Position numbers and translations under genes: made by a program
Part shown: positions 7,565 to 20,333 of the stretch, piece by piece
Layout of the letters: every line of letters begins with the position of its first letter
Numbering within the stretch: the stretch's first letter is position 1
Notes under the pieces: model-generated
What the model was told of the DNA's origin: nothing
Seen by the model: only the letters and a program-made list of their open reading frames with translations
Database searches by the model: none
NCBI GenBank assembly: GCA_024654025.1
Contig: JANLIR010000002.1
Coordinates: forward strand, 168,959-232,958
Length of the DNA: 64,000 nucleotides
From: Candidatus Wolfebacteria bacterium
GTDB lineage: Bacteria; Patescibacteriota; Minisyncoccia; UBA6257; UBA9933
Direction: 5' to 3'

Positions 7565-7649
7565 GTCCTCGTGGCGGAAATGGAATACGCGCAGCGCTTA
7601 GGACGCTGTCCCGCAAGGGTTGTGGGTTCGACTCCCACCGAGGACACCA
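7565..7649 (+). tRNA. tRNA-Leu (anticodon TAG), class II with long variable arm; CCA encoded
   Basis: Acceptor GTCCTCG/CGAGGAC; anticodon arm CAGCG-CTTAGGA-CGCTG; variable stem CCC-GCAA-GGG; T-arm GTGGG-TTCGACT-CCCAC; ACCA at the 3' end. Preceded by a TATAAT -10 element at about 7543. Confidence 0.8.
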
Positions 7650-7650
7650 A

Positions 7651-7686
7651 ACTATAAATCCCTTCGAGACCGAAGGGATTTATAGT
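7651..7686 (+). terminator. Perfect 16-bp hairpin immediately 3' of tRNA-Leu
   Basis: ACTATAAATCCCTTCG-AGAC-CGAAGGGATTTATAGT. No clean U-tract, so it may be a processing or structure element. Confidence 0.45.
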
Positions 7687-7809
7687 TTATATATCACAAG
7701 GGAGGAGAAGGGTATTTAAAAAAGCAAACTGCTTTGCTTTTTTAAAACCCCGGCTCTGGAGGAGTAATTTTCCATGTTTATTTATGAACGAAAAATTACG
7801 GGGGAAGAG

Positions 7810-7827
7810 GACTCCCACCGAGGACAC
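7810..7827 (+). repeat. 18-bp direct repeat of the tRNA-Leu 3' end (candidate att-site remnant)
   Basis: GACTCCCACCGAGGACAC at 7810-7827 is identical to the last 18 nt of the tRNA body (7630-7647). It lies 4 bp from the stop of the tyrosine recombinase gene. Confidence 0.6.
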
Positions 7828-7831
7828 AAAA

Positions 7832-8827
7832 TTATCCCCTTCTTCTTCCGTGAAATGTTTTGTGTATTTCTTTGAGTTCTTTATTTGTTAAATGCGTGTA
7901 AATTTGGGTTGTGGAAATATTGCTATGGCCTAAAAGTTCTTGCACAGACCTTAAATCCGCTCCTCCGATTAATAAATCAGTGGCAAAGCTATGCCGGAGC
8001 AAATGCGGGTGGATTTTTTGCGGTATCCCCGCTTTTCGGCCGTAAAAATCTATCAAGCGCTGAATTGCGCGAGGAATAATTCTCCCGATAACTTTCGGAT
8101 TTGCTTGCCCTGAGCTCATCGAGTCTGAGACTCTCAGAGTCGAATGACTTGTCGAACGGGTTGCTTTAGTTAAGCTTACAAACAGCGCTTCTTCGGCATC
8201 GGTTCGTTTTCCTAAATAATTTTTTATAGCTTTCTTGGCGGATTCGGATAAAAACACCACTCTTATTTTCCCGCCCTTGCCCCGCACGGAAATTTCTCCC
8301 CTATTCAAATCAAAATACCGGCTCAAAGAACATAATTCTGAAACGCGAAGCCCGGTTGAAAACAAAACTTCCAAAATCGCTTTGTCGCGAAGTCCTTTTA
8401 AATCGTTTGTTTTGGGCGCTGCCATAAGCCGTTCCAAATCCGAGTATTCCATTATATTGATTTGCCGGTTTGGAATTCTAGGAAGCTCGATTTTTTCCGA
8501 AGCTAAAACCCTGTAGTCGTTTTTCGCCAAAAATTTCAAAAAGTTTCTAAGCGCTATTATGTAGTAGCTTTGGGTTGTGCGTTTAAAGTTTTCTCCATCT
8601 CTGGGATTATGAAGCCGCGCCAGATAGATCCGAAAATCTCTTACGTTGTCAGCGGTGATATCGCCCTCGGATTTTATTTTGGCGAAATCAAAAAACTTCG
8701 TTAAATAGTGCTCATAATTTTCCCGCGTGTCTTTAGTCCTGCCTTTTTCAATCTCAAGATAATCAAGATAGTTTTTGAGGAGTTTGTTTATGTCAGCCAT
8801 AGCTTCGCAACCTGTAACTTGTAACAA
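7832..8827 (-). CDS. Tyrosine site-specific recombinase (XerC/XerD / phage-integrase family)
   Basis: 331 aa. N-terminal SAM-like core-binding domain; catalytic motifs LFSTGLRVSEL, HPHLLRHSFATDLL, LGHSNISTTQIYTH (R…HxxR…Y). About 25-aa insertion relative to canonical XerD before the HxxR box. Confidence 0.85.
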   Translation of the reverse strand: MLQVTGCEAMADINKLLKNYLDYLEIEKGRTKDTRENYEHYLTKFFDFAKIKSEGDITADNVRDFRIYLARLHNPRDGENFKRTTQSYYIIALRNFLKFLAKNDYRVLASEKIELPRIPNRQINIMEYSDLERLMAAPKTNDLKGLRDKAILEVLFSTGLRVSELCSLSRYFDLNRGEISVRGKGGKIRVVFLSESAKKAIKNYLGKRTDAEEALFVSLTKATRSTSHSTLRVSDSMSSGQANPKVIGRIIPRAIQRLIDFYGRKAGIPQKIHPHLLRHSFATDLLIGGADLRSVQELLGHSNISTTQIYTHLTNKELKEIHKTFHGRRRG

Positions 8828-15217: not shown

Positions 15218-15718
15218 ATGGATAAGCAGATCTACTATGGGTTGCTGTCTCTTATTCCTATTTCGGGCATTGTTCTAGTTACTGTCACTGCAATTTTATT
15301 GATTGTAAAGTTGAGGGCGGTTAAGGGGCAAACGATAATAGTGCTTTTTATAATTGGAGTTGCTCTATGCGAGCTTCGGCCGCAAGAATTAAAAAACGTC
15401 ACGATTTTTTCTGAGTTGCCAGACAATCGTTATCAAATTGCCGGTCAAGTGCCAACAGTTAATTATGCGATAATTAGCTACAAGGGAAGAAATGGAATCG
15501 ATGTGGTAATGGTTAAGGATGTTCCGGGCGATTTAAAATTAGGCACGATTTTTGTCATTAAAAATGGGCAGGTGGAAATAGAGTGGCAACCGGAAGACCA
15601 ACAAGAGGAACAACAAAAAAAAGAACAAAAAGAAGAGACAGAGGAATATAGATTCGGTCCGTATGATTTTCGTATCAGGGCGGCCTCCAAAGATAAGGAG
15701 GCTGCTTTTTTTGCGTAA
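15218..15718 (+). CDS. Hypothetical membrane protein with acidic C-terminal tail
   Basis: 166 aa; strong RBS (GAGGAGGGGG); two TM helices, then a Gln/Glu-rich tail. Hairpin terminator at 15722-15745 (GGTCCCT-TATGC-AGGGACC). Confidence 0.4.
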   Translation: MDKQIYYGLLSLIPISGIVLVTVTAILLIVKLRAVKGQTIIVLFIIGVALCELRPQELKNVTIFSELPDNRYQIAGQVPTVNYAIISYKGRNGIDVVMVKDVPGDLKLGTIFVIKNGQVEIEWQPEDQQEEQQKKEQKEETEEYRFGPYDFRIRAASKDKEAAFFA

Positions 15719-15729
15719 AAAAAGGTCCC

Positions 15730-16017
15730 TTATGCAGGGACCACCTCAACTCCTTTCTTTTCCGGGGGGTTTCTCCGAAAATATTCTTTGGCCTTGTCGC
15801 AGGCCGCGGCAAAAGCGGCCGGCGCGACAACGTAGTTGTGAGTGTCACGCGTGTGCGCGCCCGGCTTAAATCTCTCATTAAGACCGCCGGCTGTTACGAT
15901 ACGACGACCGAAGCGTGTCTTGTGACGGAAAGGTATAACAACCCCCTCTGTCCAGACCTGAACGATGTTTGGGTTGCCAAGCTTCTTTCCTGTTTCGAAA
16001 ACCCAGACATTCAGCAA
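15730..16017 (-). CDS. Small hypothetical protein in a GC-rich islet (TTG start)
   Basis: 95 aa; start TTG preceded by AGGAGG at a 6-nt spacing. Local GC is about 52%. No recognisable motif. Confidence 0.35.
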   Translation of the reverse strand: MLNVWVFETGKKLGNPNIVQVWTEGVVIPFRHKTRFGRRIVTAGGLNERFKPGAHTRDTHNYVVAPAAFAAACDKAKEYFRRNPPEKKGVEVVPA

Positions 16018-16031
16018 GTTGCGCCTCCTTC

Positions 16032-16214
16032 CTAATAGTGAAAGGTCAGGATCGACTTCATGAAAGCGGGATACCGAGAAGTCAGGATCACCATCATGAA
16101 GGCGAACACGGTCATGATCAGCATCCCTCTGAATATCGGCTGGAAAAACCTGCGAGTGAAGTGGTCATTCCGCTTCCTTTTGCTGTTGTGCTTCTGGTTC
16201 GTATAAATAAACAT
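16032..16214 (-). CDS. Possible small hydrophobic protein in the GC-rich islet (very tentative)
   Basis: Internal ATG (MFIYTNQ…) preceded by GGGGGGTG. The tracked ORF 16032..16229 uses a TTG start. It could also be non-coding. Confidence 0.2.
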   Translation of the reverse strand: MFIYTNQKHNSKRKRNDHFTRRFFQPIFRGMLIMTVFAFMMVILTSRYPAFMKSILTFHY

Positions 16215-16303
16215 TTTCACCCCCCACAAAGATTTTTTACGATCTGGCTAAATAGTAGCATATTTTTTAAAGTTTGTAAAGAGGGGTAAAATAGCCCGTC
16301 TAT

Positions 16304-16687
16304 TCAGAGATTTATATTCTTGTAATGAGAAATGATGGGGTTATTAGTGTTGTTTAGGGTTATAGCAATTAAATCAATTCGCCACCCCATTTCCTTATTT
16401 ATTAAGCCTTGATTAGCGCCTGAATATAAAGAGGCGGTTCTGGCTACTTTTTTAAGCTTAGAAGCAGTTAATTGATCCTCGGGTTTTAGGTTGAAATTGG
16501 TAGATTGTTGGAGGGTTTTGACTTCTATAAAAACAAGAGTTTTGTCGTGGTCTTTAGCTATGATATCTATCTCTCCCCACGGCTTCCTATAATTCCGCTC
16601 AATAATCCGGTATCTATTGTTGATTAAGCACTCGCAAGCCAAATCTTCGCCTAATTGCCCAGTTTTTTGTTTATCTGTTGAATCCAT
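16304..16687 (-). CDS. YraN-family (UPF0102) predicted endonuclease
   Basis: 127 aa; GEDLACECLINNRYRIIERNYRKPWGEIDIIAKD…LVFIEVKT matches the YraN/UPF0102 signature. Confidence 0.7.
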   Translation of the reverse strand: MDSTDKQKTGQLGEDLACECLINNRYRIIERNYRKPWGEIDIIAKDHDKTLVFIEVKTLQQSTNFNLKPEDQLTASKLKKVARTASLYSGANQGLINKEMGWRIDLIAITLNNTNNPIISHYKNINL

Positions 16688-16767
16688 CCAGTATTTTTGT
16701 TAGTATTTTATAAATGTTGCTCGGGTAAACATTATTTAAATTGTACCACGTGTAATACGATAAACAA

Positions 16768-17199
16768 ATGCAAACAAAAAAAATTACAGCAGAATATATT
16801 AGGGGCTTTATTGAGGGCGTGGGAACTTTTACTTTCACAACCTCGTCACGGGGTTTCAATAAAAAGGTTAAAATACCAACTTTTCAATTAAGAATGAATA
16901 TTCGAGATAAACGGTTAATTGAATTGATTAAAGGACATCTCGGACTTAAAAATAGGGTTTATATGTATCATTATCCGGGAACTGATGGCGCAAAACGAGG
17001 GCCACAAGCGATGTTAATAGTCCGAGAAATAGGTAATCTGAAAAATATAATCATCCCTTTCTTTTACGATAAGCTGGTTGGGTATAAAGCAGCCCAATTT
17101 AATAAGTGGCTTGAAAGAATAGGTAAAGACTCGGAAGTGCCAGAGGGATTTAAGATTCTATACCGTCTTCATAAATCCGGTTGGTTTTCAAAGAAATAG
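16768..17199 (+). CDS. LAGLIDADG-family homing endonuclease (single-motif, free-standing)
   Basis: 143 aa; YIRGFIEGVGTF is a LAGLIDADG-type motif (cf. LAGFIDGEGSF). The size fits homodimeric I-CreI-like enzymes. Confidence 0.6.
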   Translation: MQTKKITAEYIRGFIEGVGTFTFTTSSRGFNKKVKIPTFQLRMNIRDKRLIELIKGHLGLKNRVYMYHYPGTDGAKRGPQAMLIVREIGNLKNIIIPFFYDKLVGYKAAQFNKWLERIGKDSEVPEGFKILYRLHKSGWFSKK

Positions 17200-17483
17200 C
17201 ATTAAAATGGTTTAGTAGGTAAAAATACTAATTCGGCAATGGTCATTGCCGAATTAAAATAGGGGTTTTGCCGAATTAAAATGTTGGGAATGTTTTACAA
17301 CCAACACTTTGAATCAAATTTTAAGGGTCTAAAGTGTCAAAAATGTTTATCAAGTTTTGATAAACAATCTTTTACGACAGATTAGCTTAAAATTGGGCTA
17401 AAAAGTGTTTATCAAGTTTTGGCAAACATTTTCGGAAAGTTTAGTAAATAGTTCGGCAATCCGTTATTTGATGGATTGCCGAA

Positions 17484-18137
17484 CTAATAGGACGCGAAAA
17501 TACCCTTTGCCCACCCCCGGATTTTTAAAGATAGCCCAACATTACAGATGTAGATTTCAAAAGTTCCATAAGGAAGGCCCTCTTTTTTGGATTTTGTGGC
17601 TCTTTTTACTGAGAGTTTGAAAAACTGCTTTAAAGGGATGCCGGAAATTTCCGACCAGTATTTTTCTGTTCCCCGATGATCAAGGTGGGGATAGATATAA
17701 ATATGCCCCCGGAATTTCTGTTCCGGAACCTCACAAACATCCCTAAAAAAGGCCATCATTAACCTAACTATATTCGGGTCGCTGTTTGAGAACCGGACAA
17801 GGCCTTTTTGGGTTTTCCCACACCCTGCCCAATACAAAACCGAGCCAATTAGCCAAAGCTCACTTCTAGTTATTTTCTTTACCTGCTTTTGCGCTTGGTC
17901 GATAAGGTTTTCTCGTGTAGCTGTTTCCCGAGCCAGTCTGGTTGCGCGTCTTTTTTCCACTACCGAAAGCTTTACGGCGCGCTTTGATAGCGTTTTCTCC
18001 TGGTCTTTAGTTAGCGCGATGTTGCGGACCCATAAGCTCGCGCTACTTTTTGAAACGTTTAAGTTTTTCGCGATCTCGTTCAGAGAGTAACCATAAGCTC
18101 GGAGTTCTCGCGCTTTTTGTTTTTCAGCCTGCTTCAT
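17484..18137 (-). CDS. HTH plus LAGLIDADG-like domain protein (possible degenerate homing endonuclease / maturase-like)
   Basis: 217 aa. N-terminal sigma70-region-4-like HTH (LRAYGYSLNEIAKNLNVSKSSASLWVRNI). C-terminal segment SELWLIGSVLYWAGCGKTQ…VRLMMAFFRDV resembles a LAGLIDADG helix lacking the acidic residues. Confidence 0.35.
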   Translation of the reverse strand: MKQAEKQKARELRAYGYSLNEIAKNLNVSKSSASLWVRNIALTKDQEKTLSKRAVKLSVVEKRRATRLARETATRENLIDQAQKQVKKITRSELWLIGSVLYWAGCGKTQKGLVRFSNSDPNIVRLMMAFFRDVCEVPEQKFRGHIYIYPHLDHRGTEKYWSEISGIPLKQFFKLSVKRATKSKKEGLPYGTFEIYICNVGLSLKIRGWAKGIFASY

Positions 18138-18220
18138 AATCGAACTGATGAAGATATTTACTATGCTGAATATAGCATACAGGTTCGATTATTACAATAA
18201 AAAGAAGTTTGATTTCTGTG

Positions 18221-18290
18221 CGCGTTGAGGGGATTGAACCCCCGACCTGTCGCCTAAGGCGACCGTTCTAACCAACTGCTCCGACGCTTC
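18221..18290 (-). other. tRNA-like sequence, apparently degenerate (pseudo-tRNA)
   Basis: Minus strand: D-arm-like GAGCAGTTGGTTAGAAC, arm GTCGC-CTTAG-GCGAC with only a 5-nt loop, good T-arm GGGGG-TTCAATC-CCCTC. The 3' strand AACGCGC has no complementary 5' acceptor strand. Preceded by the hairpin CTCCGAC-CGAAGC-GTCGGAG. Confidence 0.3.
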
Positions 18291-18339
18291 GGTCGGAGCC
18301 CCGACTTCGTATTAGCGAACGTCGGAGAGCTAAAAATTG

Positions 18340-18568
18340 TGGACGCGCCCCGACTCGAACGGGGGACCTTCTCGGTGTCCCGCACAAAGTGGGTGCTATA
18401 GGATTCGAACCTATGACCTTCGCAGTGTAAATGCGACGCTCTAACCAACTGAGCTAAGCACCCACTTTAAGCGGGATTGCGATTTGTTTTTAAAAATTTT
18501 ATATCAAATTAAATTTTTAGACAAATCGGGAATAAACGAGACGCTCTAACCAACTGAGCTACGCGTCC
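18340..18568 (-). other. Interrupted tRNA-Val-like gene (outer halves) hosting a complete tRNA-Val in its anticodon-loop region
   Basis: 5' part (plus coords ~18535-18568): GGACGCG-TA-GCTC-AGTTGGTTAG-AGC-G-TCTCG-TTT… 3' part (18340-18384): …ACAC-CGAGA-AGGTC-CCCCG-TTCGAGT-CGGGG-CGCGTCC-A. Acceptor GGACGCG/CGCGTCC and anticodon stem TCTCG/CGAGA pair perfectly across a ~155-nt insert. Confidence 0.5.
18390..18463 (-). tRNA. tRNA-Val (anticodon TAC)
   Basis: GGGTGCT-TA-GCTC-AGTTGGTTAG-AGC-G-TCGCA-TTTACAC-TGCGA-AGGTC-ATAGG-TTCGAAT-CCTAT-AGCACCC-A. Flanked by imperfect inverted repeats CCCGCTTAAAGT / ACTTTGTGCGGG (18464-18475, 18379-18390). Confidence 0.8.
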
Positions 18569-18569
18569 A

Positions 18570-19184
18570 CTATTTGATTTTATCGTCTCCATTGCTATTC
18601 TCTTTGCTTAACGCATTAAAGACTTTTTTCAGAGCGTATTCAAAAAATATAACTCCTATTATTAAAAGCGTCAAAAACAGGGCGGCTCGTTTTAAATCGT
18701 GTTTAAGAATATCGGTTTGGTGCGCAAAAAGGTATCCAAGAGAAATTAATAAAGTTGTCCAGACAGCTGCGGCGGTTGCGCTGTATTTCAAAAGTTTTTT
18801 AAGCGAAATTTTTGAATAGCCGGCGCAGACTAAAACTACTCTGTTTAAATTCCACGCGAACTTGGAAATAAAAATCCAAAAACCGCTTCTTTTTTCCAGT
18901 TTCCGCAAAATCGGCGCGGTGTTTTCGGTTGTAAAAAATAAAAATTTTTTCCGTCCGCTTTCAACCAATCTTTTACCCAAGCTCCAATAAAAAAGATCGC
19001 ACAAGATAACCCCGATAAAAGCCGTTATTAGCGAAGGGAAAAAACCGACAGCTCCGCTTCTTACCAATACTCCGGTCAGTACCAGAATAATTTCTCCCTC
19101 TATGAACATTCCTATAAATATGGCCAAGTACGCGAGTATTCGGTGAACTTCGGAGAGATTTAAAAACAAGGATTCAATATGCAT
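18570..19184 (-). CDS. DedA-family (VTT/SNARE-associated domain) membrane protein
   Basis: 204 aa; multiple TM helices and conserved DedA segments (FIGMFIEGEIILVLTGVLV…GFWIFISKFAWNLNRVVLVCAGYSKISLKKLLKY). Its stop abuts the 5' end of the interrupted tRNA. Confidence 0.75.
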   Translation of the reverse strand: MHIESLFLNLSEVHRILAYLAIFIGMFIEGEIILVLTGVLVRSGAVGFFPSLITAFIGVILCDLFYWSLGKRLVESGRKKFLFFTTENTAPILRKLEKRSGFWIFISKFAWNLNRVVLVCAGYSKISLKKLLKYSATAAAVWTTLLISLGYLFAHQTDILKHDLKRAALFLTLLIIGVIFFEYALKKVFNALSKENSNGDDKIK

Positions 19185-19206
19185 CTCCTTATTATAGCAA
19201 AAAAAG

Positions 19207-19278
19207 TGCGAGTGGCAGGGATCGAACCTGCGACGGCCGTCTTATAAGGGCGGTGCTCTACCACTGAGCTACACTCGC
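19207..19278 (-). tRNA. tRNA with anticodon TAT (reads AUA; Ile-type)
   Basis: GCGAGTG-TA-GCTC-AGTGGTA-GAGC-A-CCGCC-CTTATAA-GACGG-CCGTC-GCAGG-TTCGATC-CCTGC-CACTCGC-A. One C·A mismatch in the anticodon stem. Anticodon UAU, not the usual bacterial CAU-lysidine. Confidence 0.55.
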
Positions 19279-19394
19279 AAATTATTTCATAACCAGCTGC
19301 CTGTCCGCCGCAGTCCGCCTATTGGCGGACGAAGGAGGAAGCTACACGCGCAAAGATAGCAATAAATATAGCAAAAACTTTTGTATAGTCAAAG

Positions 19395-20333
19395 CTACTT
19401 CAAAGTCGTAATCGGCCTGCTTTGGACAATATAAAATTTATTTTTTTCAAAAGCCCATTCAATGTCCTGCGGTTTTTTATAATGATTTTCTATATTTTGG
19501 CATATTTGTGCCAACTGTAAAATATATTTGTCGGCCAGTTTTTGTTTTTCTTGCTTGGCTTTCGGCACGATAGTTTCTTTAACTCCGCTTCCGTCTCGCA
19601 CAACCATCATTTCCTGCTTTGAAATGTTTGAGTCCAAAATATTTCTGTTTGTTTTGTGAATTACGTAAGTGTCAGGAGTGATTTTGCCCCCGACAATCGC
19701 TTCGCCCAATCCATACCCGGCCTCAATTACCATCTGGTCATAATCTTCGGTTACTGGGTGTACCGTAAAACAGATTCCGGAAATTTCCGATTGAATCATT
19801 TTCTGCACCACAACTGCCACTAAAACTTTTTGCTTATGAAGTTTTTTTTCAAACCGATAAAAAATCGCGCGTGGAGTAAATAGCGATGCCCAGCATTTTT
19901 TAACATTTTCCAAAAGATTTCCCTTTGAAGTATTTAAATAACTTTCCAATTCTCCGGCCCAGGAAGCGGTAGAAGAGTCCTCGGCTGTGGCTGAACTACG
20001 TACTGCCACATATTTTGTTTTCAGCTTGGCGAATTCAGTTAAAATTTCTTTGGCGATATCTTTGGGAAATTTAGCGTTTAAAATTAAGCTCCTGATTTCT
20101 TCAGAGACCTTTTCAATGGAGTTTATATCTTTGACTTTTACTTTGTGGAGCTGGGCTTCTATCTCAACGTCAATATCGGTTTCTTCCAAAAACCTATCAA
20201 AAGCCCCAGCCAAAACCACAAATCCGGGCGGCACCGGAATTCCGGATTTTATCATTTCGCCAAGCGAAGCTCCCTTGCCTCCGGCAATAGCAGCGTCTTT
20301 TTTTGAAAGTTTGTTAATTTTTTTAATAAACAT
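19395..20333 (-). CDS. PEP-utilising enzyme N-terminal ATP/nucleotide-binding domain protein (PPDK_N-like; PEP synthase / rifampin-phosphotransferase ATP-grasp module), stand-alone
   Basis: 312 aa. GGKGASLGEM and VAVRSSATAEDSSTASWAGELESYLN match the PEP synthase / PPDK N-terminal domain. No swivel or PEP-binding domain in the same ORF. Confidence 0.75.
   Translation of the reverse strand: MFIKKINKLSKKDAAIAGGKGASLGEMIKSGIPVPPGFVVLAGAFDRFLEETDIDVEIEAQLHKVKVKDINSIEKVSEEIRSLILNAKFPKDIAKEILTEFAKLKTKYVAVRSSATAEDSSTASWAGELESYLNTSKGNLLENVKKCWASLFTPRAIFYRFEKKLHKQKVLVAVVVQKMIQSEISGICFTVHPVTEDYDQMVIEAGYGLGEAIVGGKITPDTYVIHKTNRNILDSNISKQEMMVVRDGSGVKETIVPKAKQEKQKLADKYILQLAQICQNIENHYKKPQDIEWAFEKNKFYIVQSRPITTLK

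What the first reader, a model, noticed from the sequence alone, without database searches (positions are those of the whole stretch)
16768..18340. Homing-endonuclease-like genes and dense palindromes beside the interrupted tRNA cluster
A free-standing single-motif LAGLIDADG ORF (16768-17199) and an HTH plus LAGLIDADG-like ORF (17484-18137) sit beside a YraN nuclease gene and the minus-strand tRNA cluster. Between them are strong palindromes: the perfect 26-bp AATTCGGCAATG·CATTGCCGAATT (17228-17253), TGTTTATCAA-gtt-TTGATAAACA (17345-17367) with a degenerate copy at 17404-17428, and TTCGGCAATCC-N10-GGATTGCCGAA (17445-17481). Downstream lies a degenerate tRNA-like sequence (18221-18290) preceded by the hairpin CTCCGAC-CGAAGC-GTCGGAG. 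No rRNA or obvious group I intron hosts them. The nuclease genes and palindromic sites could belong to the machinery that creates the tRNA insertions, or to a decayed mobile intron.
Basis: partly seen in the sequence, partly recalled or inferred. Interest (0 to 1): 0.55.

Follow-up and report, generated by a model that had tools for sequence, protein, structure and literature searches.

The report
LAGLIDADG cassette, tRNA-linked HTH gene, repeats
Two unrelated small genes abut here in a Candidatus Wolfebacteria genome: a real but probably non-cutting LAGLIDADG gene that sits beside yraN and carries its own array of palindromes, and a helix-turn-helix gene (not LAGLIDADG) from a large unstudied family that is nearly always found next to a tRNA gene. 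Nothing shows that either gene made the tRNA insertions.

Summary
ORF1 (16768-17199) is a genuine single-domain LAGLIDADG_1 protein by Pfam, PDB profile and predicted fold. Its catalytic Glu is replaced by Val, yet it evolves under purifying selection (dN/dS 0.12).

Its family sits divergently next to yraN in about 50 of 63 CPR loci. It is bracketed by TGTT..AACA palindromes, including perfect parS in one lineage, and followed by TCGGCAA repeat arrays. The window's "dense palindromes" are this lineage's version of that array.

The ORF1 cassette (16688-17228) was swapped horizontally: 90-98% identity to one relative, 26-70% to others. The boundaries are the yraN start and the 17229-17256 palindrome.

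Relatives with the same genes and palindromes have one intact tRNA-Val. The palindromes share nothing with the tRNAs, and there is no intron ribozyme. A mobile-intron origin is rejected. A role for ORF2 in tRNA-Val turnover remains open.

The parts
16304..16687 (-). yraN (UPF0102, PD-(D/E)XK nuclease), the conserved divergent neighbour of the ORF1 family
   Evidence: Pfam UPF0102 E=1.2e-22. It is adjacent and divergent in 46-50 of 63 ORF1-family loci and in L095-L097.
16688..16767 (.). yraN-ORF1 intergenic region, part of the exchanged cassette. It holds a degenerate palindrome TGTTGCTCGGGTAAACA (16715-16731, 53 nt before the ATG) and TGTACCACGTGTAATA (16742-16757, 4 mismatches to parS).
   Evidence: 94% identical to L004 but 44-49% to L001 and L091. 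The family has TGTT..AACA palindromes 46-74 nt upstream at 2.61/kb, against 0.03/kb elsewhere. The two sequences were read.
16768..17199 (+). ORF1: single-domain LAGLIDADG_1 protein of 143 aa. The motif is GFIEGVGTF, with the catalytic Glu replaced by Val.
   Evidence: dN/dS against L004 is 0.12.
17229..17256 (.). Box A palindrome TAATTCGGCAATG-gt-CATTGCCGAATTA. It marks the boundary between the conserved spacer and the swapped ORF1 cassette. On the minus strand it is terminator-like.
   Evidence: The centre reads TGGTCA here and TGACCA in L125.
17268..17275 (.). Extra TTGCCGAA half-site, a direct repeat of the right arm of Box A 22 bp away
   Evidence: (family D1)
17344..17366 (.). Box B1 palindrome TGTTTATCAA-gtt-TTGATAAACA, with a half-site of type TGTTTRYC
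   Evidence: It is invariant across four lineages.
17406..17428 (.). Box B2, a hybrid copy TGTTTATCAA-gtt-TTGGCAAACA
17449..17486 (-). Hairpin directly after the ORF2 stop codon, with a 14-bp stem and a 10-nt loop
   Evidence: The stem is 100% complementary (I14). L091 has TAGTTCGGCCTCCC/GGGAGGCCGAACTA, in which three pairs are changed on both sides.
17484..18137 (-). ORF2: an N-terminal HTH, a long helix and an alpha/beta domain without a solved relative. It is not LAGLIDADG. The motif is LYWAGCGK where the family has LYWAEGxK.
18138..18218 (-). ORF2 promoter region: TTGTAA-17-TG-TATATT (18197-18169), flanked by the inverted repeat AATCGAACC (18190-18182) / GTTCGATT (18145-18138)
   Evidence: the motif is at 9.6/kb upstream of family genes against 1.3/kb elsewhere
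18219..18331 (-). Decayed tRNA-Val(UAC) carrying two inserted hairpins. It is the positional orthologue of the intact tRNA-Val in L125.
18340..18568 (-). tRNA-Val(UAC) number 1, split at position 35/36 (or 34/35) by a 155-nt insert (18378-18532). The insert carries a promoter and the intact tRNA-Val number 2 (18390-18463).
   Evidence: (the joined halves give a canonical tRNA-Val)

Best explanation
The stretch holds two independent, conserved gene-plus-site modules that happen to lie tail to tail in this Candidatus Wolfebacteria lineage.

**Module 1: yraN, ORF1 and the repeat array**
- ORF1 is a free-standing, homodimer-type LAGLIDADG gene.
- Its family across the Candidate Phyla Radiation (CPR) occupies one fixed place. 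It lies divergent from yraN, with a TGTT..AACA palindrome in its promoter region.
- Downstream come parS-like 16-23 bp palindromes and arrays of the 7-mer TCGGCAA.
- Boxes A and B in the window are this lineage's version of that array.
- The 541-bp ORF1 cassette (16688-17228) has been replaced horizontally between lineages. The likely route is recombination in the conserved flanks, the way free-standing homing-endonuclease cassettes spread.
- This allele has Val in place of the metal-binding Glu and is under purifying selection.
- I infer that it no longer cuts DNA and is kept as a palindrome-binding protein. It may regulate its own or yraN's promoter, or occupy the array.

**Module 2: tRNA-Val and ORF2**
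- ORF2 is an HTH protein with a C-terminal alpha/beta domain that has no solved relative. It is not LAGLIDADG.
- It belongs to a very large uncharacterised family whose genes sit directly beside a tRNA gene.
- It has its own promoter, flanked by an inverted repeat that resembles the tRNA T-arm box.
- The hairpin right after its stop codon is a structure kept by compensatory changes.

**What is shown and what is inferred**
- Shown: domain and fold assignments, synteny, cassette mosaicism, motif enrichments and selection.
- Inferred: that ORF1 binds the palindromes, what the array does, and what ORF2 does.
- The tRNA-Val insertions are a separate, lineage-specific event. Neither ORF1, YraN nor the palindromes is implicated in it.
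For: **ORF1 identity**
- Pfam LAGLIDADG_1 E=8.3e-9; profile against PDB E=8e-19; Foldseek TM 0.60-0.68 to I-OnuI, I-SmaMI and bI3.
- The catalytic position is Glu in 61 of 72 and 64 of 66 relatives, and Val here.
- dN/dS is 0.12 against L004.

**Fixed context of the ORF1 family**
- yraN is divergent and adjacent in 46-50 of 63 loci and in L095-L097.
- TCGGCAA occurs at 3.86/kb in the 400 bp downstream, against 0.58/kb elsewhere. Arrays with an 11-bp period occur in L101 and L098.
- No such cluster occurs in 84 control loci, apart from L020, which is the same locus as L001 and L003.
- TGTT..AACA palindromes occur at 2.61/kb upstream, 1.15/kb downstream, 0.03/kb elsewhere and none inside the gene.
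- L149 has two perfect parS sites 49 and 83 bp after the gene.

**Cassette swap**
- Window 16664-17228 is 90-98% identical to L004 but 26-70% to L001 and L091. The flanks are 80-95% identical to all three.
- dS is 0.32 for ORF1 against 0.69 for yraN in the same genome pair.
- L001 and L091 carry a different allele that keeps GEG.

**ORF2**
- The only recognised domain is the HTH.
- 76 of 80 family loci have a tRNA gene within about 140 bp.
- The family has 4962 cluster representatives at E<=1e-10.
- dN/dS is 0.24.

**Spacer and tRNA**
- The spacer is conserved in every relative with this synteny.
- The hairpin shows compensatory changes.
- Relatives have an intact tRNA-Val.
Against: - No binding or cleavage data exist, so the link between ORF1 and the palindromes rests on co-location alone.
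- Box B is 23 bp, not the 16 bp of parS. The window has no parS match within 3 mismatches.
- The spacing of TTCGGCAA pairs varies (0, 6 or 16 nt between the 8-mers). That fits hairpins better than a rigid dimer site.
- Box A on the minus strand looks like an ordinary terminator.
- The Val allele is the one that moved most recently, which is odd for a dead endonuclease.
- No 'empty' yraN-array site without the LAGLIDADG gene could be retrieved, so insertion into the array is not proven.
- The tRNA linkage of the ORF2 family could still mean that ORF2 acts on tRNA genes.
Confidence: 0.6

Rival explanations
1. ORF2, rather than ORF1, is a tRNA-gene-directed nuclease or recombination factor. Together with an adjacent 'immune' tRNA allele it forms a selfish unit. 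Its activity drives replacement of tRNA-Val genes and produced the decayed, split and nested tRNA-Val copies in the window.
For: - 76 of 80 family loci abut a tRNA gene, and the tRNA identity is specific to each subfamily: Val-UAC, Gln-UUG, Asn-GUU, Pro-CGG, Phe or Gly.
- At least four different tRNA-Val alleles occupy this site in close relatives.
- Two lineages, the window and L093, have a decayed adjacent tRNA-Val.
- The insert sits exactly in the anticodon and brings a promoter plus a replacement tRNA-Val.
- Conserved polar residues (E, K, N-S-D, K-x-R-x-H) suggest an active site.
- The ORF2 promoter repeat resembles the T-arm box.
Against: - No nuclease fold was detected.
- In Streptomyces the gene is a conserved core 'hypothetical protein' at one locus, which does not look selfish.
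- Most relatives have an intact adjacent tRNA.
- The whole window clade has lost the near-invariant Glu of YWAEGxK.
- tRNA integrity does not track the state of that Glu.
Confidence: 0.15
2. The palindromes are only ordinary transcription signals. They are bidirectional terminators between two convergent genes plus an operator or two, with no link to ORF1.
For: - The genes are convergent.
- The hairpin after the ORF2 stop keeps its stem through compensatory changes.
- Box A on the minus strand meets the terminator scan, with a 13-bp stem and a TATTTTTACC tail.
- In L001 the arm AGTTCGGCAA can pair with TTGCCGAACT, which is followed by TTTTTT.
Against: - The same 7-mer recurs in arrays of 5-7 copies, in direct and inverted orientation and with an 11-bp period, downstream of ORF1 relatives in distant lineages. 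It is absent from control loci.
- Box B is AT-rich, present in two copies and sequence-invariant, with no covariation.
- The core of the spacer is at least as conserved as the flanking coding DNA.
- Multiple tandem 16-bp palindromes without loops, as in L133 and L149, cannot be terminators.
Confidence: 0.15
3. The locus is a decayed mobile intron or intein-like element whose ribozyme and host gene have eroded, leaving orphan endonuclease genes.
For: - CPR genomes are known for LAGLIDADG-bearing rRNA introns and for group I introns at tRNA position 35/36 (PMC13011429).
- ORF1 lacks its catalytic Glu.
- The split tRNA-Val is interrupted at 35/36.
Against: - There is no group I or II hit at E<=5 across 15500-20000.
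- Both ORFs are intact and under purifying selection.
- They lie between complete genes in conserved synteny in all relatives.
- The 155-nt tRNA insert is a promoter plus a tRNA gene, not a ribozyme.
Confidence: 0.03

Closest known systems
Free-standing homing endonuclease genes, such as phage T4 seg and mob genes. SegB lies in the T4 tRNA gene cluster. This comparison rests on my own knowledge.
   Same: ORF1 is a small endonuclease-family gene lying between host genes rather than in an intron. It occupies one fixed site, exists as divergent alleles at that site, and its phylogeny disagrees with its flanks.
   Different: - ORF1 belongs to the LAGLIDADG family, not GIY-YIG or HNH.
- The host is a CPR bacterium, not a phage.
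- This allele lacks the catalytic acidic residue yet is under purifying selection.
- The gene comes with a conserved array of short repeats and is tied to yraN.
- No cleavage site is known.
Homodimeric single-motif LAGLIDADG enzymes (I-CreI type) and non-cleaving LAGLIDADG derivatives (bI3 maturase, WhiA)
   Same: ORF1 has one LAGLIDADG domain of about 145 aa, which implies a homodimer that reads palindromic DNA. Its fold matches I-OnuI-type domains and the bI3 maturase. Loss of the catalytic residue with retained selection parallels maturases and WhiA.
   Different: There is no intron for it to mature and no added HTH as in WhiA. The palindromes near it are 16-28 bp with variable centres and occur in multiple copies, unlike a single 22-bp homing site.
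parS/ParB chromosome partition sites
   Same: The half-site TGTTT..C / G..AAACA recurs. Two perfect TGTTTCACGTGAAACA sites flank an ORF1 relative in L149. Clustered variants occur in many loci. ParB is encoded in the window.
   Different: The window's Box B is 23 bp with 7 extra central bases, and nothing in the window is within 3 mismatches of parS. ParB binding is untested, and the TCGGCAA repeats have no counterpart in par systems.
Group I introns at position 35/36 of Patescibacteria tRNA genes (PMC13011429)
   Same: The phylum and the insertion position in the anticodon loop are the same as for the split tRNA-Val beside the finding.
   Different: The 155-nt insert has no ribozyme signature. 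It consists of a promoter-like site, a hairpin and a complete second tRNA-Val. tRNA-Val is not among the hosts named in the passages I read (tRNA-Asn, Asp, Thr, Arg, fMet, Leu, Ile2).

Membership tests
LAGLIDADG homing endonuclease (ORF1) | Sequence match to a LAGLIDADG profile above the curated threshold | tested here: met
   PF00961 scores 36.7 bits against a cut-off of 23.1, E=8.3e-9. The family profile hits solved LAGLIDADG enzymes at E=8e-19.
LAGLIDADG homing endonuclease (ORF1) | alpha-beta-beta-alpha-beta-beta-alpha core fold | tested here: met
   The AF2 model has pLDDT 90.4 and pTM 0.84 with the expected element order. The Foldseek top 50 are all LAGLIDADG proteins, E 9e-8, TM 0.57-0.68.
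LAGLIDADG homing endonuclease (ORF1) | Acidic metal-binding residue at the C-terminal end of the motif helix | tested here: not met
   The window has E-G-V-G where the family has E-G-E-G. Glu is present in 61/72 and 64/66 relatives, and it aligns with the GEG/AEG of solved enzymes.
LAGLIDADG homing endonuclease (ORF1) | Evidence of horizontal mobility at a fixed site | tested here: met
   The cassette 16664-17228 is 90-98% identical to L004 but 26-70% to L001 and L091, with flanks at 80-95%. dS is 0.32 against 0.69 for yraN.
LAGLIDADG homing endonuclease (ORF1) | Site-specific double-strand cleavage of a long target | not testable with these tools
   This needs purified protein and candidate sites (Box A, Box B, the upstream palindrome and an empty site).
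LAGLIDADG-like protein (ORF2) | Profile or fold similarity to LAGLIDADG domains | tested here: not met
   - No LAGLIDADG family appears among the 25 most-matched Pfam families for the 33 members at E<=0.5.
- The PDB profile search returns only HTH hits.
- hhalign against the ORF1 family gives probability 0.1%.
- Foldseek finds no hit at E<0.001.
- The predicted topology alternates strand and helix and lacks beta-hairpins.
Helix-turn-helix DNA-binding protein (ORF2) | N-terminal HTH domain | tested here: met
   HTH_23 matches 29 of 33 members, best E=2e-9. The window protein itself is below the cut-off (HTH_38 E=1e-3). The Sleeping Beauty PAI subdomain matches at E=0.0085.
Group I or group II intron | Ribozyme core recognisable by a covariance model, interrupting a host gene | tested here: not met
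   No Rfam intron match at E<=5 in 15500-20000. Both ORFs lie between complete genes in all relatives.
parS partition site (Box B) | 16-bp palindrome close to TGTTNCACGTGAAACA | tested here: not met
   The window has no match within 3 mismatches, and Box B is 10+3+10 bp. Canonical or near-canonical sites do flank ORF1 relatives elsewhere.
Intrinsic terminator (hairpins 17449-17486 and 17229-17256) | Stable stem kept by covariation, followed by a U-run | tested here: inconclusive
   The stem at 17449-17486 is kept by three double changes relative to L091, but it has no run of five or more T. Box A meets the scan on the minus strand only, and that T-run is absent in L001 and L091.
YraN / UPF0102 | UPF0102 domain | tested here: met
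   E=1.2e-22, 80.5 bits

The most novel reading that the evidence does not exclude
Two readings that the evidence does not exclude.

- **ORF1 family.** It may be a lineage of homodimeric LAGLIDADG genes that has colonised a chromosomal cis-acting repeat region of CPR bacteria: parS-like palindromes plus TCGGCAA iterons beside yraN. It would use those conserved palindromes as homing or binding sites. Some alleles, this one included, would have been domesticated into non-cutting site-binding proteins.
- **ORF2 family.** It may be a previously unrecognised class of tRNA-gene-associated DNA-binding enzymes or regulators, found from CPR bacteria to Streptomyces. Its activity would underlie the cassette-like replacement of tRNA-Val genes seen here, including a tRNA gene nested in the anticodon of another.
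Probability: 0.2. Interest if true: 0.8.

Novelty: new variant of a known kind. Interest (0 to 1): 0.6.

Why it matters
- A homing-endonuclease family tied to a chromosome partition-like repeat region and to the natural-transformation nuclease YraN would be a new niche for selfish DNA. It could be a case of domestication in the smallest bacterial genomes.
- The ORF2 family has thousands of members, is conserved in Streptomyces, has no annotation and is nearly always beside a tRNA gene. It is a concrete target, testable in a genetically tractable organism, for an unknown tRNA-gene-linked function.
- The conserved repeat arrays may mark a cis-acting chromosomal site in CPR bacteria. Origins and centromeres have not been mapped experimentally in these bacteria.
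- For annotation: ORF2-like proteins should not be called LAGLIDADG. Alleles like ORF1 here should not be assumed to be active nucleases.

Tried and rejected
- **Intron models.** Rfam in E-value mode over 15500-20000 found nothing. ARAGORN with the intron option does not call the split gene.
- **Curated family for ORF2.** NCBIfam and PHROGs give only HTH or transposase-HTH noise. Streptomyces homologues are all named 'hypothetical protein'.
- **Palindromes as copies of a tRNA target site.** No shared k-mer of 9 or more bases was found, and shared 8-mers are below chance.
- **Canonical parS in the window.** None.
- **Replication origin or terminus.**
  - No DnaA was found among the 24 window ORFs scanned against Pfam.
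  - GC skew simply follows gene strand.
  - DnaA-box-like TGTGGAWA motifs occur in some related arrays (L095, L102, L104, L137) but not here.
  - The question is unresolved.
- **Small RNA gene in the spacer.** There is no Rfam hit and no convincing promoter. Too few substitutions exist to test covariation outside the ORF2-proximal hairpin.
- **The spacer element outside the Wolfebacteria clade.** nhmmer finds it only in L001-L006, L020 and L091-L094.
- **Locus search with the full ORF2 alignment.** It failed because the alignment was too diverse. It was repeated with a tighter alignment.
- **Literature.** No papers were found on parS in Patescibacteria or on free-standing LAGLIDADG genes in CPR.
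Full report
**Origin and layout**

An exact copy of ORF2 is recorded from a Candidatus Wolfebacteria MAG, a member of the Candidate Phyla Radiation (CPR, also called Patescibacteria). The gene order in the window is:
- yraN, 16304-16687, minus strand
- ORF1, 16768-17199, plus strand
- a 284-bp spacer
- ORF2, 17484-18137, minus strand
- a cluster of tRNA-Val sequences on the minus strand, 18219-18568
- a VTT-domain membrane protein gene, 18570-19184

ORF1 and ORF2 are convergent. The palindromes therefore lie between two 3' ends, not in a promoter.

**ORF1 is a real LAGLIDADG protein, but probably not a nuclease**

- It passes Pfam LAGLIDADG_1 at 36.7 bits against a cut-off of 23.1.
- A profile of 28 relatives hits solved LAGLIDADG enzymes at E=8e-19.
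- The AlphaFold model (pLDDT 90) has the expected helix and beta-hairpin order.
- All of its top 50 Foldseek hits are LAGLIDADG proteins: I-OnuI, I-SmaMI, I-LtrWI and the bI3 maturase, with TM 0.57-0.68.
- It has a single domain, so it would act as a homodimer. That step is an inference from established knowledge of I-CreI-type enzymes.
- The family motif is YIRGLxEGEGxFTF, and the window reads EGVG. That position aligns with the catalytic Glu of solved enzymes.
- The position is Glu in 61 of 72 database relatives and in 64 of 66 metagenome loci.
- The Val allele is nevertheless under purifying selection. Against L004 there are 24 synonymous and 13 non-synonymous differences, giving dN/dS 0.12.

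**ORF1 is a swapped cassette**

Five related lineages share the order VTT, tRNA-Val, ORF2, spacer, ORF1, yraN: L001/L003, L004/L006, L091, L093 and L125.

A sliding comparison gave the following:
- Window 16664-17228 is 90-98% identical to L004 but only 26-70% to L001 and L091.
- The VTT gene and yraN are 81-89% identical to all three.
- ORF2 is 84-87% identical to L001 and L091, and 72% to L004.

L001 and L091 carry a different LAGLIDADG allele of 152-161 aa with an intact GEG motif. For the window-L004 pair, dS is 0.32 in ORF1 and 0.69 in yraN. The breakpoints are the yraN start codon and the Box A palindrome (17229-17256). This is the pattern expected of a free-standing homing-endonuclease cassette.

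**The palindromes belong to the ORF1 family's context, not to the tRNAs**

I fetched 80 metagenome loci that encode ORF1 relatives of 41-61% identity.

- *yraN.* It lies directly upstream and divergent in 46 of the 63 loci with enough flank. The count is 50 if four loci are included whose open frame overlaps the gene start. The same arrangement holds in L095-L097.
- *TCGGCAA.* The 7-mer occurs at 3.86/kb in the 400 bp downstream of these genes, against 0.58/kb elsewhere.
  - 25 of 76 loci have two or more copies.
  - Some have arrays of 5-7 copies with an 11-bp period, as in L101 and L098.
  - No such cluster occurs in 84 control loci, apart from L020, which is the same locus as L001 and L003.
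- *TGTT..AACA palindromes.* They occur at 2.61/kb in the 150 bp upstream, 1.15/kb in the 300 bp downstream, 0.03/kb elsewhere, and never inside the gene.
  - The upstream class is typically TGTTATAC-T-GTATAACA, 46 to 74 nt before the start codon.
  - The downstream class is TGTTTnnCGnnAAACA. It includes two perfect parS sites in L149.

The window's Box A (TTCGGCAA type) and Box B (half-sites TGTTTATCAA or TGTTTGCCAA) are this lineage's version of these two motif classes. Within the Wolfebacteria clade the core of the spacer is almost invariant. The spacer folds far better than shuffled sequence, z=-9.8.

What the array does is not established.
- The window encodes ParB but has no canonical parS.
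- Box B is 7 bp longer than parS.
- Some related arrays hold DnaA-box-like TGTGGAWA motifs. The window's array does not.

**Part of the spacer is an ordinary RNA or DNA hairpin**

The 14-bp stem that overlaps the ORF2 stop codon (17449-17486) is perfect in the window. It is also perfect, but changed at three pairs on both sides, in L091 (AATCC/GGATT against CTCCC/GGGAG). Its loop length varies between lineages. Box A meets the terminator scan on the minus strand. The refuting condition 'ordinary terminators' is therefore met for part of the region, but not for the repeat arrays.

**ORF2 is not LAGLIDADG**

- Only the N-terminal HTH is recognised.
- The model is confident (pLDDT 89). It shows an HTH, a 40-residue helix and a domain of alternating strands and helices.
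- Foldseek finds nothing at E<0.001.
- hhalign against the ORF1 family gives probability 0.1%.
- Its Glu is near-invariant (94 of 99 members) but is Gly in the whole window clade.
- ORF2 is under purifying selection, dN/dS 0.24.

**The ORF2 family is tied to tRNA genes**

In 80 species genomes, 76 homologues have a tRNA gene within about 140 bp.
- The closest subfamily has tRNA-Val(UAC) 55-110 bp upstream, in either orientation.
- Streptomyces has tRNA-Gln(UUG) about 40 bp downstream.
- Acidimicrobiia have tRNA-Asn(GUU).
- Omnitrophota and Planctomycetes bins have tRNA-Pro(CGG).
- Other lineages have Phe/Gly or Pro/Arg pairs.

The family has 4962 cluster representatives at E<=1e-10. The Streptomyces members are all annotated 'hypothetical protein'. 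Family promoters carry the inverted repeat AATYGAACC..GGTTCRATT-ATG, whose core motif is enriched 7-fold upstream of family genes. The repeat resembles the tRNA T-arm box.

**The tRNA cluster**

- Relatives have one intact tRNA-Val between the VTT gene and ORF2.
- In the window that orthologue has decayed (18219-18331). Its 3' third is identical to that of L125, its 5' two-thirds are scrambled, and it carries two inserted hairpins.
- Upstream lies a second tRNA-Val whose halves (18533-18568 and 18340-18377) join into a canonical tRNA-Val(UAC).
- That gene is split at position 35/36 by 155 nt. The insert holds a promoter-like site, a hairpin and a third, intact tRNA-Val on a 13-bp extension stem.
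- Position 35/36 is where Patescibacteria group I introns insert (PMC13011429). This insert has no ribozyme signature.

**Does the locus make the tRNA insertions?**

- The same ORFs and palindromes coexist with intact tRNA-Val genes in relatives.
- The palindromes share nothing with the tRNA sequences.
- ORF1 is probably inactive as a nuclease.
- YraN is reported as the ComM-partner D-loop nuclease of natural transformation.
- ORF2 remains a candidate only because of its family-wide link to tRNA genes.

**Verdict**

The LAGLIDADG call holds for ORF1 and fails for ORF2. The intron hypothesis is rejected, and the 'insertion machinery' hypothesis has no support.

Three associations emerged for which I found no description:
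- the ORF1 family's link to yraN
- its flanking palindrome and iteron array
- the ORF2 family's link to tRNA genes

Noticed in passing
window 18340-18568 (minus strand): A tRNA gene nested inside another. tRNA-Val(UAC) number 1 is split at position 35/36 by a 155-nt cassette. The cassette holds a promoter-like TTGTCT-17-TAAAAT, a hairpin and the intact tRNA-Val(UAC) number 2 on a 13-bp extension stem. The predicted RNA fold is a cloverleaf within a cloverleaf (-87 kcal/mol, z=-6.3). No group I signature was found.
   Followed up: partly
window 18219-18331; L125 1235-1307; L093 2820-2900: The tRNA-Val next to ORF2 has decayed in the window and in L093. It is intact in L125, L001, L004 and L091. 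At least four different tRNA-Val(UAC) alleles, with different acceptor and T stems, occupy this site in close relatives.
   Followed up: partly
L011-L090 (ORF2-family loci): 76 of 80 ORF2 homologues lie within about 140 bp of a tRNA gene, and the tRNA identity is specific to each subfamily. In Streptomyces the homologue lies just upstream of tRNA-Gln(UUG), glmU and prs, and is annotated only as a hypothetical protein.
   Followed up: partly
window 18138-18190; upstream regions of L011, L013, L015, L020, L029, L030, L033, L036: The inverted repeat AATYGAACC ... GGTTCRATT directly before the ATG of ORF2-family genes resembles the tRNA T-arm box GGTTCGAAT. It could be an operator, or a hint that the protein reads tRNA gene DNA.
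   Followed up: partly
window 17241-17246 compared with L125 (same orientation): The asymmetric centre of Box A reads TGGTCA in the window and its reverse complement TGACCA in L125, while the flanks are identical. This could be a small inversion across the palindrome or two adjacent substitutions.
   Followed up: no
L147, 26 nt before the start and 23 nt after the stop; also L133, L152, L099, L131, L149: In several lineages the LAGLIDADG ORF is tightly bracketed by parS-like 16-mers. In L147 the two are exact reverse complements of each other (TGTTTGTCGCCAAACA and TGTTTGGCGACAAACA), like terminal inverted repeats.
   Followed up: no
L095 4500-4660; L102, L104 and L137 downstream regions: In some lineages the arrays downstream of ORF1 relatives contain several DnaA-box-like motifs (TGTGGAAAC, TGTGGATTA, TGTGGATAG) interleaved with TTGCCGAA. 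This raises the possibility that the region is origin-related.
   Followed up: no
L096 1655-3190; L097 5271-6806: A ComM-like gene (ChlI, Mg_chelatase and Mg_chelatase_C domains) lies within 2 kb of the yraN-LAGLIDADG pair. This fits the reported ComM-YraN partnership in natural transformation.
   Followed up: no
window 18569-18572; L125 about 1300-1320: The stop codon of the VTT-domain gene is one base from the first base of the split tRNA-Val in the window. In L125 it lies inside the tRNA-Val gene. The last roughly 40 nt of the VTT gene differ between lineages, so the replaced segment reaches into that gene.
   Followed up: no
window 7565-8827: A tyrosine recombinase gene (Phage_integrase plus a SAM-like N-terminal domain; 7832-8827, minus strand) lies beside tRNA-Leu(UAG) (7565-7649). 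It could be XerC/D-like or the integrase of an integrated element.
   Followed up: no
P0316, P0322, P0324-P0326, P0339, P0349, P0360: Some ORF2-family proteins are 396-576 aa long and contain two or three tandem copies of the whole HTH plus alpha/beta unit.
   Followed up: no
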